The translations under genes and the position numbers were made by a program. Of a DNA stretch of 64,000 nt, positions 38,661-57,831 are shown piece by piece. Under the pieces are notes generated by a model. That model had not been told where the DNA came from. It did not search any database and was given only the letters and a program-made list of their open reading frames with translations. Every line of letters begins with the position of its first letter. The stretch's first letter is position 1. The stretch comes from a virus. The DNA lies in the IMG/VR virus record IMGVR_UViG_3300020578_000037, positions 20,689 through 84,688 of that record; one strand, 5' to 3'.

Positions 38661-39392
38661 TTAATTTGATAGTGCAGAAATAACAAATTTAAATTGTGTT
38701 TTTTCAAAACTTAAATCCATTACAACTACACCCATTTTAGTAACTAAATTAACATTTAGTTCTTTACATCTCATAGAAGAAATTATTCTAAATATTTCAA
38801 AATTCAAGGGTAAGGGTATAGCGAACTGTGTGCCTGAATAATTATCAGAAATTTGAATTCCGTAAGAGTCAATGTTAGGTCTAGTTTTATCAGTTAACTC
38901 GCCAAAAACAATATTATTTTTAACGCTCAAATAAATCTTATTAGATTCAGTTGTAATAGAGCTGCCTTTAATCAAATTAATAATAGAACTGTATGGTAAT
39001 GTAAACTTACCATCAAATTCTAATGAATCGAGCTTGCTAATATTAAGTTTTGGTGTTGAAATAATATTATCATCATAAAGATGGTATTTGAATCTAATAT
39101 TACTATTCGAATAACCTATATGATTTAATGCTACGTCTAGGGTTAAATCTTCTGTTTCTATACAACTAAGGACTCTATACAGTTTCTTTAGATCAGGTAT
39201 ATTAAGAACCTTTTCAAGGTCAATTAAGTTATCATTATAATCACCGCTAACAACTATAGTATTATCGCTTGTAGCAATTAAGCAGTGTAACTTACCTTTA
39301 GAAACGTTAATAACAGCTGAATCGGCAACCCTGCTTAATAAAGAAATATAGGTATTTAAAAAAGCGTCCTTTGAGGATAATTTAAGCTGCAT
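38661..39392 (-). CDS. gp45: Sliding clamp (gp45-like)
   Basis: 243 aa alpha/beta protein, NIPDLKKL, FKYHLYDDNII; context beside gp32. Confidence 0.7.
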   Translation of the reverse strand: MQLKLSSKDAFLNTYISLLSRVADSAVINVSKGKLHCLIATSDNTIVVSGDYNDNLIDLEKVLNIPDLKKLYRVLSCIETEDLTLDVALNHIGYSNSNIRFKYHLYDDNIISTPKLNISKLDSLEFDGKFTLPYSSIINLIKGSSITTESNKIYLSVKNNIVFGELTDKTRPNIDSYGIQISDNYSGTQFAIPLPLNFEIFRIISSMRCKELNVNLVTKMGVVVMDLSFEKTQFKFVISALSN

Positions 39393-41346: not shown

Positions 41347-41562
41347 TCAATAATTGTAGTACTTCCACTTAAATTTTGCAAGCTCTTTTTTAACCTTTTT
41401 AAGTACGCTAGGCTTATAAAAACATCTTTTTAATTTTAACTGCTCTATAACACCCGATTGCATAAATTCTCTATTAAACTTATTATACATTTTTTCAAAA
41501 TAAGCTTTGTCAGTGCTCTTCTTGGTGTTTAATTTAACTTCTGCGTGTACTATATAACTCAT
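41347..41562 (-). CDS. rpsU: Ribosomal protein bS21 homolog
   Basis: 71 aa basic protein; FEKMYNKFNR...SGVIEQLKLKRCFYKPS matches the bS21 pattern. Confidence 0.75.
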   Translation of the reverse strand: MSYIVHAEVKLNTKKSTDKAYFEKMYNKFNREFMQSGVIEQLKLKRCFYKPSVLKKVKKELAKFKWKYYNY

Positions 41563-43233: not shown

Positions 43234-43905
43234 TTACTTGTTACTACTGTATTCTGATAAAAATTTTTCTTGACTAGCTACAAATCTTTCATCATTCACG
43301 TCAAGGAGACCAGGAGAAATATGGACCACCCATAGAGGTGCTACTCCTAATCTAAGTTGTTTTTTATTTGCATCTATACAGCTAGCAATATCATAATGAT
43401 GAAAGTCGTAATTTTCATTAAACTTCCAGCCTACTGAATTTACTCTTCTTACATCAACACTTAAAAAAAGTCCGTCCAAAATTGCAACTCTATCAGGCGA
43501 AGGGCCAAAATTGGTAACCATTAACTGTTCTTTAGAGCAAGGATGTGCCACCGCACCTCGGAGATTACCGCCGCTAAACCCTCCGCACATCAAGTGCCAT
43601 AATGCAGGTTGAGTTATTTTTGGATTTAAACCACCAGCTAGCCCTACAATATCATAAGCTTTATGAGCTCTCGAAAGTTTTTCAACCATTCTTTTATCAT
43701 CTAAAAATACATCGTCATGAACAAAGACAACATAATCATATTCCTTGCCTTTTGTTGATAAAAATAAATTATACCTCTTACTAAGTCCTGTTGTATTGTC
43801 TTCTGTGCAGTAAAAGTCAAATGTTTTATCTAAAGGATAAACGCTCTTATGTAAGATGGTATCAGTAATTTTATTTCTTGTTACACTGTATACAGCTATT
43901 TTCAT
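43234..43905 (-). CDS. GT-A fold (GT2-like) glycosyltransferase
   Basis: FVHDDV (DxD-like), VGLAG, LDGLFL, DFHHYD; ATGA overlap with the GATase gene. Confidence 0.8.
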   Translation of the reverse strand: MKIAVYSVTRNKITDTILHKSVYPLDKTFDFYCTEDNTTGLSKRYNLFLSTKGKEYDYVVFVHDDVFLDDKRMVEKLSRAHKAYDIVGLAGGLNPKITQPALWHLMCGGFSGGNLRGAVAHPCSKEQLMVTNFGPSPDRVAILDGLFLSVDVRRVNSVGWKFNENYDFHHYDIASCIDANKKQLRLGVAPLWVVHISPGLLDVNDERFVASQEKFLSEYSSNK

Positions 43906-44582
43906 GTAAAAAATGGTGAGTTGGTCGTAAATTTACCAACGCTGGTTATTCCTTCTTTTGTGAGAAGATAGAGCAGTCCTTCTTCAAGTGCAACATAATC
44001 TTTTTCGGGTAGAGAGGAAAATGAATTATTCAAGAAATCTGCATACAATGTACTACCAGAGCGAGCAATATAAATGTTACCGGATTTTTGATTAAAAATC
44101 CAAACACCAAACGTTCCTTGTAAACTTGAAAGCGCTTTTACTATGGCAGTAATTTCATCATCATATTTTAAGAAATTCATCTCAATTAATGGAGCAATAA
44201 CAGAAGAGTCAACTGTGTTATATGATTTTTTGTTTGGTAATTTATTCTTAATACCCTTATCATTCGTAAGAACCCCATTGTGGGCTATTATCCAATCCTT
44301 GTATTGAAAAGGATGTGATGTTTGTGGTGTATAAGATCTTTGTGCAGAGGTTGGTGCTTGTGTATGTCCTAGAAAATAGTTAAAATCGGTAATAGACTTT
44401 TTCTTCTTACCGTATTCAATGGTAAGCTTATTAGAGAGACTAGTAACACCAGCTGTTTTAAGGATAGCATGTACCTTTGTGTTTATCAAAAGCCCGCCGT
44501 AAGAGAAAGTACCTCTTTTCTTATTATTCTTATAGAGTTTAACATAATTGTTAAACTCTTTAGATCCAAATATTCCGCAAAT
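43902..44582 (-). CDS. Class II (Ntn) glutamine amidotransferase, 226 aa, ATT start
   Basis: The frame extends 31 codons upstream of the track start to ATT-TGC-GGA-ATA-TTT-GGA (M-CGIFG); RG, GHTQAPT, HPF, AHNGVL, VDS motifs. Confidence 0.85.
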   Translation of the reverse strand: MCGIFGSKEFNNYVKLYKNNKKRGTFSYGGLLINTKVHAILKTAGVTSLSNKLTIEYGKKKKSITDFNYFLGHTQAPTSAQRSYTPQTSHPFQYKDWIIAHNGVLTNDKGIKNKLPNKKSYNTVDSSVIAPLIEMNFLKYDDEITAIVKALSSLQGTFGVWIFNQKSGNIYIARSGSTLYADFLNNSFSSLPEKDYVALEEGLLYLLTKEGITSVGKFTTNSPFFT

Positions 44583-44590
44583 AGTATATT

Positions 44591-44599
44591 ACCTCCTTA
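44591..44599 (-). promoter_or_regulatory. Perfect Shine-Dalgarno TAAGGAGGT, 8 nt upstream of the ATT start
   Basis: Read directly; preceded by TTGAAT(44625-30)-N16-TATAAT(44603-08). Confidence 0.85.
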
Positions 44600-44631
44600 A
44601 ATATTATAATAGAAACAATAAATAATTCAAG

Positions 44632-45563: not shown

Positions 45564-46307
45564 TTAAACAGTAATATTTTTACACTTATATTTTTCCCAA
45601 GGTATTGAAATTTTATAGGGTAATGGGTCTATATAACCGGCATCTATAAAGCCTTTTATTCTTAAAGAACAAGCTGTACATTCACCACAAGCTCGTTCTT
45701 CTCCTTCATAACATGTCCAGGTATTCTTAAAATTTACTCCTAGTTTTATACCTAATTTTATAATTTCTGCTTTAGATTTATCGATTAACGGTGCTTGAAT
45801 GGTAATCTTGTTTCTTCGGTTTAAAGCCGATACTTTATTAATTTGCTCTAAGAATTCTTCACTACCATCCCAGAACCCGGCAACGCTATCGGCCTGTGCT
45901 GCTCCATGAAAAACAGTGCTAGCCCCTACGTTCTCTGCTATTGCCAGAGATATACTAAGAAGCATTAAGTTACGGTAAGGTACATAGTTTACCGTTTGTG
46001 GATCGCCCATTACGTCTTTGGCTTTAGCAACTGCAATCTTGTTGTTAAGGAGAGATGAAATCTGACAAATATCCTTAAAAAACGGTAATTTAATGGATTG
46101 ATATGTCACTGGCATGTCCAGTGATTCAATCTGTAGAGTAGCGCATAATAGCTCTTTATCTCTGTGCTTTTGACCGTAGTCATAGTTTACAGCTATGATC
46201 TCATCATACCTACTAGCAGCTAAATGTAGTAGTACAGAGCTGTCCATTCCCCCGGAAATAGGGACTACAGCTTTACTCGACGGGTTCTTCTTCGCCTTGC
46301 GCTTCAT
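45564..46307 (-). CDS. queC: QueC-like PP-loop ATP pyrophosphatase (7-cyano-7-deazaguanine synthase family)
   Basis: SGGMDS, DYGQKH, VPYRN, TWTCY...CGECTAC; likely start is the ATG at 46307 (MKRKAKK). Confidence 0.85.
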   Translation of the reverse strand: MKRKAKKNPSSKAVVPISGGMDSSVLLHLAASRYDEIIAVNYDYGQKHRDKELLCATLQIESLDMPVTYQSIKLPFFKDICQISSLLNNKIAVAKAKDVMGDPQTVNYVPYRNLMLLSISLAIAENVGASTVFHGAAQADSVAGFWDGSEEFLEQINKVSALNRRNKITIQAPLIDKSKAEIIKLGIKLGVNFKNTWTCYEGEERACGECTACSLRIKGFIDAGYIDPLPYKISIPWEKYKCKNITV

Positions 46308-47391
46308 TTGCGTTATACTTGTATTCTTCAGCCAAGCGCTTGTCGAGTTCAGGGATAATAAATTCCTCGTAGAAAGCGGGATCTTTTGCAAATGTCTTTG
46401 CATATCCTAGTTTATCGCCCTTCTTATACTTACCACTTGTGATACCGACGGTATAAGTTGCACCATTTTGTTCAACGATGCCTCTCACTGCTGCCATACC
46501 AAGTAAACCGCTATACTTGTTAAGACCGGTCTTAAAGGATAGATACATTTCTGTCTCTAAAAACGGGGGAAGGAAGCGATTCTTTACAGTTAACGCTCTA
46601 AGCGTTGTACCGCTATATTTGTTAGCTTCAGCTAACTTCTTATCTTCAGCATCCATGGAATCACCTTCACCTTCTTTTTCATGACGCTTAGCTAGCTGTA
46701 CTAAAATACTAGCCATATATACAGGTCCTGAGCCTCCAGCTTGGTTTTTTACAAGACTGGGAAACATTGAAGCCGGGTCATCATATGTATGATTAGTAAA
46801 CAAAATTGTAACGCCGGCTTTAGCGGCTTTAAAGGTCAGAGTACGAAACATACTCTTTAATGATTTTGCACGAAGACCCATATCAGATGCAGATTTATCC
46901 TTAGCTACGTCATCTAGCTCTTTCTGCGATGCTAGGTTACCAAGACTATCAATACTAATAATAAACTTACCTTTTGCATTGTTTTCAATAATACTATCAA
47001 GTAATGCGCTAACTTGATTACGACACTGATCAATAGTATCTACTGGTACATATTTGACATTTTCAGGATCTAAGCCTACACCCTTAGTACTATTCTCATC
47101 AATAGCAATTTCGGTATCAAATATAACAGGGGTAAGGCCTTTCTTTTGCGCGGTAGCAAGGATCTTATTTACAATAAATGTCTTACCTGTCTGACTAGGT
47201 CCAGAGAATCCGGTTATTCTCCCTTTAGGTACACCACCAGCCCTACAACTACCACCAAGTATAGCGTTAAGAGCGTAACATCCAGTATCAAACCACTCAT
47301 CAACTTTGCTAAGTGCATTTTCGTTTAAAAAAGAAGCTTCACTGTTAAGCTTATCTAATGATGCAAATATCTTACTAAGGTCTTTACTCAT
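46273..47391 (-). CDS. uvsX: RecA-like recombinase UvsX
   Basis: GPSQTGKT, FDTE, IDSLGNL, DMGLRAK, TNHTY, KNRF. Confidence 0.93.
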   Translation of the reverse strand: MSKDLSKIFASLDKLNSEASFLNENALSKVDEWFDTGCYALNAILGGSCRAGGVPKGRITGFSGPSQTGKTFIVNKILATAQKKGLTPVIFDTEIAIDENSTKGVGLDPENVKYVPVDTIDQCRNQVSALLDSIIENNAKGKFIISIDSLGNLASQKELDDVAKDKSASDMGLRAKSLKSMFRTLTFKAAKAGVTILFTNHTYDDPASMFPSLVKNQAGGSGPVYMASILVQLAKRHEKEGEGDSMDAEDKKLAEANKYSGTTLRALTVKNRFLPPFLETEMYLSFKTGLNKYSGLLGMAAVRGIVEQNGATYTVGITSGKYKKGDKLGYAKTFAKDPAFYEEFIIPELDKRLAEEYKYNANEAQGEEEPVE

Positions 47392-57411: not shown

Positions 57412-57831
57412 GTGGAACTAGGACATTGGATTCTCGGAGATTCAGTAAAACTGGAAGAATCTACGTTCGGCTTTATTTACGAAATAACTAATACCGCAAC
57501 AAATAAAAAGTATATTGGTAAAAAACAATGTAAGTCGAAGCTTAAAAGAGCTCCGTTAAAAGGAAGAAAGAATAAGCGAATTGAAATAAAAGAATCTGAT
57601 TGGAGAGAATATACCAGCTCTTCTACAGAGCTAAATGAAGATATAAAAAAATACGGTAAGGATAAATTTATTTTTAAAATTTTAAAAACTTGTAATTCAA
57701 AATGGGAGTTAGCCTATTTTGAAATATTTGAGCAAATTAAAAATAATGTTTTATTAAGAGATGATTATTATAATGGTATTATAAATGTAAGAATAGGTCG
57801 ACCGCCAAAAAAATTTCTTGAACAAATTTAA
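57412..57831 (+). CDS. GIY-YIG endonuclease
   Basis: GFIYEITN...KKYIGKK, YFE, YYN. Confidence 0.85.
   Translation: MELGHWILGDSVKLEESTFGFIYEITNTATNKKYIGKKQCKSKLKRAPLKGRKNKRIEIKESDWREYTSSSTELNEDIKKYGKDKFIFKILKTCNSKWELAYFEIFEQIKNNVLLRDDYYNGIINVRIGRPPKKFLEQI

What the first reader, a model, noticed from the sequence alone, without database searches (positions are those of the whole stretch)
43902..44630. Hidden AUU start codon with a perfect Shine-Dalgarno restores the catalytic Cys of a glutamine amidotransferase
Seen: the minus strand reads TAAGGAGGT-AATATACT-ATT-TGC-GGA-ATA-TTT-GGA. An in-frame TAA lies three codons upstream and no ATG/GTG/TTG precedes the Cys, so ATT is the only start that yields M-CGIFG. 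Known: Ntn amidotransferases need Cys as the first residue after Met removal. AUU starts (infC, pcnB) are discriminated against by IF3, and IF3 also antagonises leaderless initiation. This is the only strong SD I noticed in front of a gene here. Inference: the gene is deliberately gated by the state of the initiation machinery (IF3 level or anti-SD availability). Gene callers would truncate it.
Basis: partly seen in the sequence, partly recalled or inferred. Interest (0 to 1): 0.82.

Follow-up and report, generated by a model that had tools for sequence, protein, structure and literature searches.

The report
Phage amidotransferase gene starting at ATT
An enzyme gene of an uncultured lake phage really begins at the weak start codon ATT behind the only strong ribosome-binding site in a genome whose other genes have none, and related phages swap this layout cleanly for a plain ATG at the very front of the message.

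Summary
Confirmed. On the minus strand ATT (44582..44580) directly precedes the catalytic Cys codon of a GlmS-type (Ntn, class II) glutamine amidotransferase. AAGGAGGT lies 8 nt upstream and an in-frame TAA three codons upstream.

It is not an error. Among 101 distinct relatives from IMG/VR, all 41 ATT alleles carry GGAGG 8-10 nt upstream. None of the 60 ATG alleles does; most of those with a recognisable promoter place ATG 6-9 nt after the -10 box, a leaderless layout. ATT never varies, while neighbouring codons and the spacer do.

The site is the strongest anti-SD match among 66 ORF starts in the window. The predicted transcript starts at the SD itself. Gene callers truncated 47 of the 120 listed database relatives, including the window's own protein.

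Best reading: a real AUU start. A strong SD is paired with a weak codon as the leadered counterpart of leaderless AUG, so initiation stays limited and IF3-sensitive.

Deliberate gating by IF3, anti-SD or phage bS21 is untested. bS21 occurs in both classes. In 6 of 41 ATT alleles, not this one, a Seg-like homing endonuclease or its remnant sits at the site, so selfish-DNA traffic may have spread the layout.

This scan has already reported the same feature in at least 9 related genomes.

The parts
44625..44630 (-). -35 box TTGAAT of the sigma-70-type early/middle promoter of the amidotransferase gene
   Evidence: TTGAA[TA]-N16-18 followed by a -10 box was found in 35 of 41 ATT alleles. The same promoter class (TTGATT-N16-TAnnAT) sits before uvsX and other genes of the window.
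44603..44608 (-). -10 box TATAAT
   Evidence: In other genes of the window the start codon lies 6 nt after this box. Here GGAGG begins 6 nt after it (AGGAGG 5 nt).
44596..44597 (-). predicted transcription start (inferred from geometry only), at the first bases of AGGAGG
   Evidence: Inference. In ATT alleles GGAGG starts 4-8 nt (mode 6) after the -10 box. In 30 of the 34 ATG alleles with a promoter, ATG starts 6-9 nt after it. No RNA data.
44591..44598 (-). Shine-Dalgarno AAGGAGGT, strongest anti-SD match before any ORF in the window
   Evidence: -13.4 kcal/mol against a mean of -0.9; conserved in 41 of 41 ATT alleles.
44589..44591 (-). in-frame TAA three codons before ATT, closing the frame upstream
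44580..44582 (-). ATT (AUU) start codon
   Evidence: invariant in 41 of 41 ATT alleles, while the Cys codon (TGC 31, TGT 10), codon 3 (8 variants), the Ile codon 4 (ATA 34, ATT 7) and the spacer (27 variants) all vary.
44577..44579 (-). TGC, the catalytic Cys that becomes residue 1 after Met removal
   Evidence: Cys invariant in alignments A1 and A4; family profile aligns to the GlmS glutaminase domain.
43902..44582 (-). full coding sequence of the stand-alone Ntn glutamine amidotransferase (226 codons plus stop)
44487..44489 (-). internal TTG that gene callers took as the start (195-aa truncated product lacking Cys)
   Evidence: P0002.
43234..43905 (-). downstream Glyco_tranf_2_5-like gene whose ATG overlaps the amidotransferase stop (ATGA), so it is probably translationally coupled
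   Evidence: the gene follows in 40 of 40 ATT loci (overlap of 4 nt in 24, of 1 nt in 14; an 8-nt gap in 2).
44534..44559 (-). 11-bp hairpin inside codons 9-17, 24 nt after the start; status uncertain
   Evidence: z = -2.7. ATT alleles average -5.4 kcal/mol against -2.45 for ATG alleles. Covariation is weak.
45564..46307 (-). QueC-like PP-loop gene, likely partner synthetase (context, not part of the start signal)
   Evidence: PF06508, 190.8 bits; adjacent in 5 of 5 long relatives. The first ATG at 46403 overlaps uvsX, so the start is probably at 46307 (inference).
41347..41562 (-). phage bS21 gene (context)
   Evidence: (PF01165, 29.9 bits).

Best explanation
This is a genuine AUU-initiated gene. 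Shown: the amidotransferase frame opens only at ATT; ATT and a strong SD at 8-10 nt are invariant partners in all 41 ATT alleles; ATG alleles lack such an SD and mostly sit at the transcript start. Inferred: the early/middle promoter (TTGAAT-N16-TATAAT) starts the mRNA at or just before AGGAGG. The 30S subunit pairs its anti-SD with this 5'-terminal SD and places AUU, 9 nt downstream, in the P site. fMet-tRNA initiates on AUU, and deformylase and methionine aminopeptidase then expose Cys1, the nucleophile of a GlmS-type glutaminase domain. The overlapping ATGA passes ribosomes to the glycosyltransferase-like gene. In this phage lineage genes are normally translated without a leader, which requires a 5' AUG. 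Once a leader with a perfect SD exists, the weak codon keeps initiation limited. Strong SD with AUU, no leader with AUG, and weak or mis-spaced SD with AUG are therefore interchangeable ways of holding the enzyme's synthesis at one modest level. A strong, well-spaced SD with ATG was not found in the family. Sensitivity to IF3 comes with AUU and may or may not be exploited.
For: Sequence. Family and catalytic motifs; profile against the GlmS glutaminase domain 1xff, E = 2e-9, with the HNG and Asp motifs aligned; Cys2, R23-G24, H101-N102-G103 and D125 invariant in 45 sequences.

Conservation: 18 of 18 nearest loci have ATT plus AGGAGG. Among 101 distinct sequences, 41 of 41 ATT alleles and 0 of 60 ATG alleles have GGAGG at 5-10 nt. 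Fisher p = 3e-29, not corrected for phylogeny. Spacing is 8 nt in 24, 9 nt in 12 and 10 nt in 5.

ATT is selected as a triplet: it is invariant while the neighbouring codons, the next Ile codon (ATA 34, ATT 7) and 27 different spacers vary.

Tree: 7 changes of start codon on the best tree and at least 4 forced by well-supported branches; every independent pair changes SD and codon together.

A search of all IMG/VR for GGAGG-N5-11-ATG-CGIFG found 13 stretches, none from this family.

Geometry: (intergenic 47-52 nt in 28 ATT alleles, 36-41 nt in the 23 ATG alleles where the neighbour gene was found). Leadered ATG alleles with a weak or distant SD: L085, L094, L095.

The layout is unique within 84.7 kb and 157.9 kb of two genomes. 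Contigs from 4 other runs show no variant at 44580.

Literature, passages read: conserved AUU/AUA starts in S. aureus all carry extended SDs and give about 10% of AUG output (PMC13009471). Leaderless mRNAs need AUG and are inhibited by IF3 (PMC8459731).
Against: There is no transcript, ribosome-profiling or protein evidence: no RNA run holds the sequence, so the transcription start, use of AUU and the expression level are all inferred. The sign test on independent pairs is underpowered: 4 supported pairs, p = 0.125. Some 'switches' are one mobile cassette that appears at three places on the tree, so the number of independent origins may be small. An SD-to-start spacing of 8-10 nt is longer than the E. 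coli optimum (recalled). UUG in the +2 frame overlaps the ATT-TGY junction and could compete. The host and its ribosome are unknown.
Confidence: 0.75

Rival explanations
1. Regulatory gate. AUU plus SD makes translation depend strictly on the state of the initiation machinery. It would occur only when IF3 proofreading is relaxed and the anti-SD is free, for example before or after phage bS21 enters the ribosomes. That would time the amidotransferase-glycosyltransferase operon within the infection.
For: This is the lone strong SD in an SD-less genome that encodes bS21 about 3 kb away. Without an AUG, any SD-independent initiation is excluded. IF3 disfavours both AUU and leaderless starts (passages in PMC8459731 and PMC7797042). 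In Flavobacterium a lone strong SD (rpsU) is read preferentially by bS21-less ribosomes (PMC9976891, passages). GTG, TTG, ATA and ATC are never used; only ATT is. Relatives carry an initiator-type tRNA lacking G30, the pair that licenses IF3 release in E. coli (PMC5389676, passages).
Against: bS21 lies next to ATG alleles too. It was found in 12 of 12 window-clade ATT contigs, 0 of 3 other ATT contigs and 5 of 21 ATG contigs, many of them fragments. No IF3 gene is in the record. Leadered ATG alleles with a weak SD exist. The promoters are of sigma-70 type, not the Bacteroidia type as recalled, so an occluded anti-SD in the host is not indicated. An earlier agent found that tmRNA, initiator tRNA and leaderless traits come and go independently (e1-5968214; I did not re-test this). 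ATA would create an out-of-frame ATG with the Cys codon, which alone could exclude it (sequence logic).
Confidence: 0.2
2. Scar of selfish DNA. A Seg-like GIY-YIG homing endonuclease inserts between the -10 box and the start codon of this gene, destroys the leaderless layout and brings an SD and ATT with it. Alleles such as the window's would be what remains after the endonuclease gene was lost or after partial co-conversion. The layout would then be tolerated, not designed.
For: A 244-aa GIY-YIG/NUMOD1-like ORF sits divergently at exactly this site in L045, L052, L058, L059 and L089 (intergenic 787 nt). A 19-residue remnant sits in L067 (191 nt). That is 6 of 41 ATT alleles and 0 of 60 ATG alleles. 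The same cassette occurs at three places on the gene tree, which fits homing. L048 looks mosaic between an ATG sister and a window-clade-like 5' end (my reading). Earlier agents proposed this (e1-5648114, e1-6057304).
Against: The window's 49-nt intergenic region is fully taken up by promoter, SD and spacer, and tblastn found no endonuclease there. 28 ATT alleles have 47-52 nt and no remnant. Within that diversified clade ATT and GGAGG never change while the spacer takes many forms and third positions are saturated, so the layout is maintained by selection whatever its origin. A single T-to-G change would give ATG, yet it is never seen. The Pfam scores of the endonuclease are below cut-off (20.9 against 22.6). 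The direction of events (insertion into an existing ATT allele, or delivery of ATT) is unresolved.
Confidence: 0.2
3. Sequencing error or recent pseudogene. The true codon is ATG, or the gene is dead, or the product starts at the internal TTG without Cys.
For: Gene callers chose TTG 44489.
Against: ATT is present in 41 distinct alleles from many samples. Four further runs show no variant. The 31 codons before the TTG are conserved as protein: variable sites by codon position are 21, 16 and 30 of 31, with about equal synonymous and non-synonymous pairwise differences. A co-evolved SD is present.
Confidence: 0.02

Closest known systems
E. coli infC (IF3) and pcnB, and F. johnsoniae infC (AUA): near-cognate start codons that limit or autoregulate expression
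   Same: A conserved AUU or AUA start without a canonical alternative. Output is low and IF3-sensitive. Automatic annotation misplaces the start; F. johnsoniae infC was mis-annotated by 57 codons (PMC7797042, passages).
   Different: The product here is an Ntn enzyme, not an initiation factor, so no feedback loop is evident. The gene is phage-borne and sits in a genome whose other genes lack an SD. IF3 dependence was not tested.
Conserved AUU/AUA starts with extended SD in Staphylococcus aureus (cvfC1, ccpN, infC; PMC13009471, passages)
   Same: A weak start codon always accompanied by a strong, well-spaced SD, conserved across relatives, giving about 10% of AUG output.
   Different: There the SD is the genomic norm. 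Here it is the exception, lies at the predicted 5' end of the mRNA, and alternates in evolution with a leaderless AUG.
Lone strong SD of rpsU (bS21) in Flavobacteriia (PMC7797042 and PMC9976891, passages)
   Same: One strong SD in a genome that otherwise does not use SDs, with bS21 in the picture.
   Different: rpsU uses AUG and its product occludes the anti-SD, which gives a feedback loop. Here the product is unrelated to the ribosome, the host is unknown, and the promoters are of sigma-70 type.
Glutaminase domain of GlmS and other class II (Ntn) amidotransferases
   Same: Cys directly after the initiator Met, the HNG oxyanion motif and an Asp in the glutamine pocket. The profile match to 1xff has E = 2e-9. 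Pfam GATase_6 and GATase_7 both pass.
   Different: A stand-alone protein of about 227 aa with a family-specific C-terminus (NSPFF). It was found only in viral contigs; no relative turned up in 185,579 species genomes by the pattern search. Its acceptor enzyme is unknown.
Free-standing GIY-YIG homing endonucleases of T4-type phages (Seg family; recalled)
   Same: In 6 of 41 ATT alleles a Seg-like gene or its remnant lies in the intergenic site at the target gene's start, and the cassette moves between alleles.
   Different: Absent from this window and from 35 of 41 ATT alleles. Pfam scores are below cut-off. Cleavage specificity is unknown.
Mammalian mitochondrial initiation: leaderless mRNAs and AUA/AUU starts (PMC11775629, search listing only; a passage on mouse mitochondria in PMC8459731)
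   Same: A translation system dominated by leaderless mRNAs that also accepts AUU.
   Different: There AUU sits at the 5' end without an SD. Here AUU needs an SD and a leader.

Membership tests
Class II (Ntn) glutamine amidotransferase | Cys as first residue of the mature protein (nucleophile) | tested here: met
   Cys follows the ATT start directly and is invariant in 45 aligned relatives. Actual processing of fMet was not tested.
Class II (Ntn) glutamine amidotransferase | Asn-Gly oxyanion motif and Asp of the glutamine pocket | tested here: met
   H101-N102-G103 and D125 are invariant. They align with the HNG and ETD motifs of GlmS chain 1xff. The residue roles are recalled.
Class II (Ntn) glutamine amidotransferase | Family profile match above the curated threshold | tested here: met
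   GATase_6 34.9 bits (cut-off 27); GATase_7 27.5 bits (cut-off 25).
Class II (Ntn) glutamine amidotransferase | Four-layer alpha-beta-beta-alpha Ntn fold | not testable with these tools
AUU-initiated genes of the infC/pcnB kind | AUU is the only possible start and is conserved in orthologues | tested here: met
   TAA lies three codons upstream. ATT is present in 41 of 41 alleles of the ATT class.
AUU-initiated genes of the infC/pcnB kind | Initiation at AUU shown, and repressed by IF3 | not testable with these tools
   No RNA or ribosome data.
SD-gated genes of SD-less organisms (rpsU type) | Lone strong SD in a genome that otherwise lacks SDs | tested here: met
SD-gated genes of SD-less organisms (rpsU type) | Product controls anti-SD availability (feedback) | tested here: not met
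   The product is an amidotransferase.
SD-gated genes of SD-less organisms (rpsU type) | Host ribosome sequesters its anti-SD | not testable with these tools
   Host unknown. The nearest cultured phages are only about 30% identical in gp43. The bS21 search found only phage-like relatives.
Gat-QueC / DpdA 7-deazaguanine DNA modification | DpdA (TGT-family transglycosylase) present | tested here: not met
   PF01702 is absent from the own record and from 5 of 5 long relatives, two of them estimated 100% complete.
Gat-QueC / DpdA 7-deazaguanine DNA modification | Amidotransferase fused to or beside QueC | tested here: inconclusive
   A QueC-like gene lies within about 1-2 kb in the window and in 5 of 5 long relatives. 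It is a separate gene with a divergent gene in between.
Homing-endonuclease insertion cassette (Seg-like) | Endonuclease gene or remnant at the site in this window | tested here: not met
   The 49-nt intergenic region holds only promoter, SD and spacer. tblastn of the endonuclease gives only a weak hit elsewhere, at 57472-57753 (E = 0.007).

The most novel reading that the evidence does not exclude
AUU behind a 5'-terminal perfect SD is a strict read-out of ribosome state in the infected cell. With no AUG to fall back on, the amidotransferase-glycosyltransferase operon is translated only by 30S subunits with a free anti-SD and relaxed IF3 proofreading. The phage itself shifts that state with its bS21 and, as seen in relatives, an initiator tRNA that lacks the G30:C40 pair. 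The lineage would then run two initiation channels, leaderless AUG for almost everything and SD-AUU for one operon, and the ratio between them would time the enzyme.
Probability: 0.15. Interest if true: 0.85.

Novelty: new variant of a known kind. Interest (0 to 1): 0.6.

Why it matters
It is a clean natural case of compensated start signals. Across about a hundred alleles of one gene, strong SD goes with AUU and no leader goes with AUG, with no strong-SD-plus-ATG allele found. It could be used to measure how leaderless and SD-led initiation are balanced, and what phage bS21 and phage initiator tRNAs do to that balance.

There is also a practical point. A whole phage protein family is stored in databases without its catalytic residue: 47 of the 120 listed relatives are truncated. 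Function predictions and structure models built on those entries are wrong at the active site.

My four literature searches found no description of an ATT start in this family. Subscription-only papers and supplementary files were not visible.

Tried and rejected
- **Sequencing error or pseudogene:** rejected.
- **Upstream start with a propeptide:** rejected for the window, where TAA lies three codons upstream. Only L045 and L052 have an in-frame ATG 12 codons upstream, and it is not kept in their cassette mates. L096 and L097 have an in-frame TTG 16 codons upstream.
- **Riboswitch or known RNA at the start:** only a chance-level Rfam hit (TD-2, 22 bits against a gathering score of 48.7, E = 0.66).
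- **Hairpin 24 nt after the start:** present in the window clade. Covariation is no better than controls: 84.4% paired against 82.3% in shuffles, 2 pairs with double changes, and no RNAalifold consensus. Left as inconclusive.
- **Link between ATT and phage bS21:** not supported.
- **Phage RegB, IF3 or peptide deformylase:** none in the 84.7 kb record, which is about 39% complete. The RegB search rang in no control genome either, so all three results are uninformative.
- **Phage tRNA with an anticodon for AUU:** none. The window and the first 21 kb of the record have no tRNA. Relative G007 has tRNA-Met(CAU) only.
- **Expression:** no RNA holder listed.
- **Cellular relatives:** none found by the pattern scan of genome contigs.
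- **Cultured phage relatives of the gene:** none by megablast. tblastn found only two Listeria phage fragments at 27.5% identity.
- **Host inference from bS21:** only 4 close, unnamed or phage-like proteins.
- **A second SD+ATT gene:** none in G000 or G007. G007:54552 lies upstream of an ordinary ATG gene.
- **Rows dropped before counts:** L087 (N-terminus replaced, no Cys) and L091 (too little upstream DNA). Exact duplicates were collapsed from 210 to 101.
- **Supplementary files:** closed and not consulted. Supplements of PMC9976891, PMC7797042 and PMC9723584 (bS21 logos, host tables) might bear on the bS21 comparison.
Full report
**What is there**

The window is the 3' 64 kb of an 84.7 kb IMG/VR virus record, estimated 39% complete. 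It belongs to an uncultured T4-like lake phage with 32% G+C. Its UvsX and gp43 are only 30-34% identical to those of cyanomyophages and Pelagibacter phage HTVC008M.

On the minus strand the 49-nt gap between two divergent genes reads TTGAAT-N16-TATAAT-ATTTA-AGGAGG-T-AATATACT-ATT-TGC-GGA-ATA-TTT-GGA. The in-frame codons before the Cys codon are TAA, TAT, ACT and ATT, so no canonical start can give a protein that contains this Cys.

Read from ATT, the frame encodes 226 residues. They pass Pfam GATase_6 and GATase_7. A profile of the family aligns with the glutaminase domain of GlmS (1xff, E = 2e-9), with the HNG and Asp motifs in register. Cys2, R23-G24, H101-N102-G103 and D125 are invariant in 45 aligned relatives.

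**Is it more than chance or error?**

The nearest database relatives (63-99% identity) are almost all called short, at 174-216 aa starting at internal M/L codons. More distant ones (50-60% identity) are 227-229 aa and start MCGIFG. In all, 47 of the 120 listed relatives are truncated.

I fetched DNA of relatives in four IMG/VR scans. After dropping L087 (no Cys) and L091 (too little upstream DNA) and collapsing duplicates (210 to 101), 41 alleles start with ATT and 60 with ATG.
- All 41 ATT alleles have GGAGG ending 8 nt (24), 9 nt (12) or 10 nt (5) before ATT. Their anti-SD duplex energies run from -10.0 to -13.6 kcal/mol.
- None of the 60 ATG alleles has GGAGG at 5-10 nt; their median energy is +0.35.
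- ATT never varies, while the Cys codon (TGC 31, TGT 10), codon 3 (8 forms) and the spacer (27 forms) do.
- The Ile codon two positions later is mostly ATA (34 of 41), so ATT is kept as a triplet and not as an Ile codon.
- The first 31 codons evolve like coding sequence.
- Contigs from four further lake runs show no variant at the site.

A search of all IMG/VR for a strong SD followed by ATG and the family's first codons found 13 stretches. All were from other amidotransferase families, at most 29% identical.

**Genomic setting**

Across 66 ORF starts the mean anti-SD energy is -0.9 kcal/mol. The ATT site (-13.4) is the strongest, and the next best is -8.9. Of 29 GGAGG in the window, only this one precedes a long frame without an upstream start. 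The same holds for the whole 84.7 kb record and for a 157.9 kb relative.

Many genes of the window have TTGATT-N16-TAnnAT followed after 6 nt by ATG or GTG, for example uvsX at 47391 and the starts at 39392, 41346 and 57117. Others have an ATAAATA box a few bases before the start. This is the geometry of leaderless mRNAs, as earlier notes of this scan said.

In 30 of the 34 ATG alleles with a recognisable promoter, ATG lies 6-9 nt after the -10 box. In the 35 ATT alleles with one, GGAGG begins 4-8 nt (mode 6) after it. The SD thus sits where the 5'-terminal AUG sits in relatives, and the predicted mRNA begins with the SD. The intergenic region is 47-52 nt in 28 ATT alleles and 36-41 nt in the 23 ATG alleles where the neighbour gene was found.

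**Evolution**

On a maximum-likelihood tree of the 101 proteins the start codon changes 7 times, and at least 4 changes are forced by well-supported branches. In every independent pair the SD changes with it. With so few pairs the sign test gives only p = 0.125. The deep, outgroup-like clades are all ATG.

Three ATG alleles (L085, L094, L095) have a leader with a weak or too-distant SD-like run. The three layouts seen are therefore strong SD with ATT, weak or distant SD with ATG, and no leader with ATG. A strong, well-spaced SD with ATG is absent. This pattern is what a constraint on total initiation strength would produce.

**The selfish-DNA lead**

Earlier agents of this scan reported the same ATT-plus-SD amidotransferase in at least 9 other genomes. 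One of them read it as the footprint of a homing endonuclease, and I tested this.

In L045, L052, L058, L059 and L089 a 244-aa ORF with GIY-YIG and NUMOD1 similarity (below Pfam cut-offs) lies divergently between the -10 box and the SD, stretching the gap to 787 nt. L067 keeps a 19-residue remnant in a 191-nt gap. That is 6 of 41 ATT alleles and 0 of 60 ATG alleles.

The same cassette, with its own SD and spacer, sits at three places on the tree, as homing would give. So part of the 'switching' is traffic of one mobile cassette, and the layout may have spread or even arisen that way.

The window's allele has no room for a remnant, however. Within its diversified clade ATT and GGAGG are invariant while the spacer drifts. 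Whatever its origin, the layout is maintained by selection, and the one-step change to ATG is never seen.

**How it most likely works**

Shown: the anatomy and its conservation.

Inferred: transcription from the early/middle promoter starts at AGGAGG. The 30S subunit binds by SD/anti-SD pairing and places AUU in the P site. Initiator tRNA reads AUU, and Met removal exposes Cys1. Ribosomes then pass through the ATGA overlap into the glycosyltransferase-like gene. That gene follows in 40 of 40 ATT loci, overlapping the stop in 38.

Leaderless initiation needs a 5' AUG (passages, PMC8459731), so a non-AUG start requires a leader with an SD. Conversely, a perfect SD with AUG would probably over-produce a free glutaminase. 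Conserved AUU/AUA starts with extended SDs that give about 10% of AUG output are documented in S. aureus (passages, PMC13009471). AUU mRNAs compete poorly and respond to temperature, nutrients and ppGpp (abstract, PMC5499595). IF3 sensitivity therefore comes with the layout.

Whether the phage exploits that sensitivity is open. bS21 lies beside both ATT and ATG alleles, and no RNA data exist.

**Function of the enzyme (side issue)**

A QueC-like PP-loop gene lies within 1-2 kb in the window and in 5 of 5 long relatives. The DpdA/TGT enzyme of 7-deazaguanine DNA modification is absent from all of them, including two genomes estimated complete.

A split amidotransferase made of the glutaminase plus a PP-loop synthetase, serving some other amidation and perhaps linked to the coupled glycosyltransferase-like gene, is my inference. 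No cellular relative was found.

**Comparison and verdict**

The mechanism belongs to a known kind: near-cognate starts compensated by a strong SD, as in infC, pcnB and the S. aureus cases. Several features are new.
- The setting is an SD-less, apparently leaderless phage that encodes bS21.
- The SD sits at the predicted 5' end of the mRNA.
- The layout alternates cleanly with leaderless AUG across a large family.
- Some alleles are linked to a homing endonuclease.
- The family is systematically mis-annotated.

I rate it a new variant of a known kind, with interest 0.6. The boldest reading not excluded is a ribosome-state gate, at a probability of about 0.15.

Noticed in passing
L237:1509-1585 (G007:C1:14018-14094), L238:1501-1574(-), L239:1495-1566, L240:1486-1561: Relatives of this phage encode an initiator-type tRNA-Met(CAU). 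One of them is a 157.9 kb contig of the window's ATT clade. The best E. coli match is the tRNA between argG and rimP (metY), at 79-88% identity. Position 1:72 is a mismatch or wobble and A11:U24 is kept. The anticodon-stem pairs 29:41/30:40/31:39 are AU/CG/GC in three of them and UA/GC/GC in one, against GC/GC/GC in E. coli. The middle G30:C40 pair, essential in E. coli (PMC5389676), is flipped. The AU first pair is the alphaproteobacterial type, which may hint at the host. The tRNA was not found in the window's own incomplete record.
   Followed up: partly
L237:1600-2011 and L239:211-661: A phage-encoded tmRNA (Rfam RF00023, 86.9 and 114.8 bits) lies next to the initiator-type tRNA in two relatives. 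An earlier agent of this scan judged these traits to be unlinked accessories.
   Followed up: no
L045:1425-1500; also L052, L058, L059, L067, L089: The homing-endonuclease cassette carries its own TTGATA-N16-TATAAT promoter. It is followed after 9-10 nt by an ATG that opens an 11-codon upstream ORF. That ORF contains the SD and ends at TAA 4 nt before the amidotransferase ATT. This looks like a termination-reinitiation arrangement and is a different route to the same AUU.
   Followed up: partly
window 44534-44559 (-): An 11-bp hairpin lies inside codons 9-17 of the amidotransferase. It is stronger in ATT alleles of the window clade than in ATG alleles with the same peptide motif. Covariation support is weak.
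   Followed up: yes
window 1954, 14793, 39392, 41346, 47391, 57117, 63308 (all -): Start codons, GTG included, lie exactly 6 nt after a TTGATT-N16-TAnnAT promoter. Many other genes have ATAAATA 5-8 nt before the start. The whole window appears to be expressed from leaderless or nearly leaderless mRNAs.
   Followed up: partly
window 45564-46403 (-): The longest ORF of the QueC-like gene overlaps uvsX by about 130 nt. The real start is probably the ATG at 46307 (MKRKAKK...), which matches the 241-266 aa frames of relatives.
   Followed up: no
window 57472-57753 (+): Weak similarity (27% identity, E = 0.007) to the Seg-like GIY-YIG endonuclease of relatives, within the ORF 57412-57831. This may be another free-standing homing endonuclease in the window.
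   Followed up: no
L087:91-756: One relative has the first residues of the amidotransferase, including the Cys, replaced by unrelated G+C-richer sequence near a contig end. It is either a chimeric assembly or a disrupted allele. It was left out of all counts.
   Followed up: no
G007 (contig of L018): IMG/VR flags this 157.9 kb T4-like contig as 'provirus'. Its first 20 kb has 34-40% G+C and holds tRNA-Glu, tRNA-Thr and tRNA-Met genes. This is more likely a phage tRNA region than host DNA, because the tRNA-Met recurs in three other related phage contigs.
   Followed up: partly
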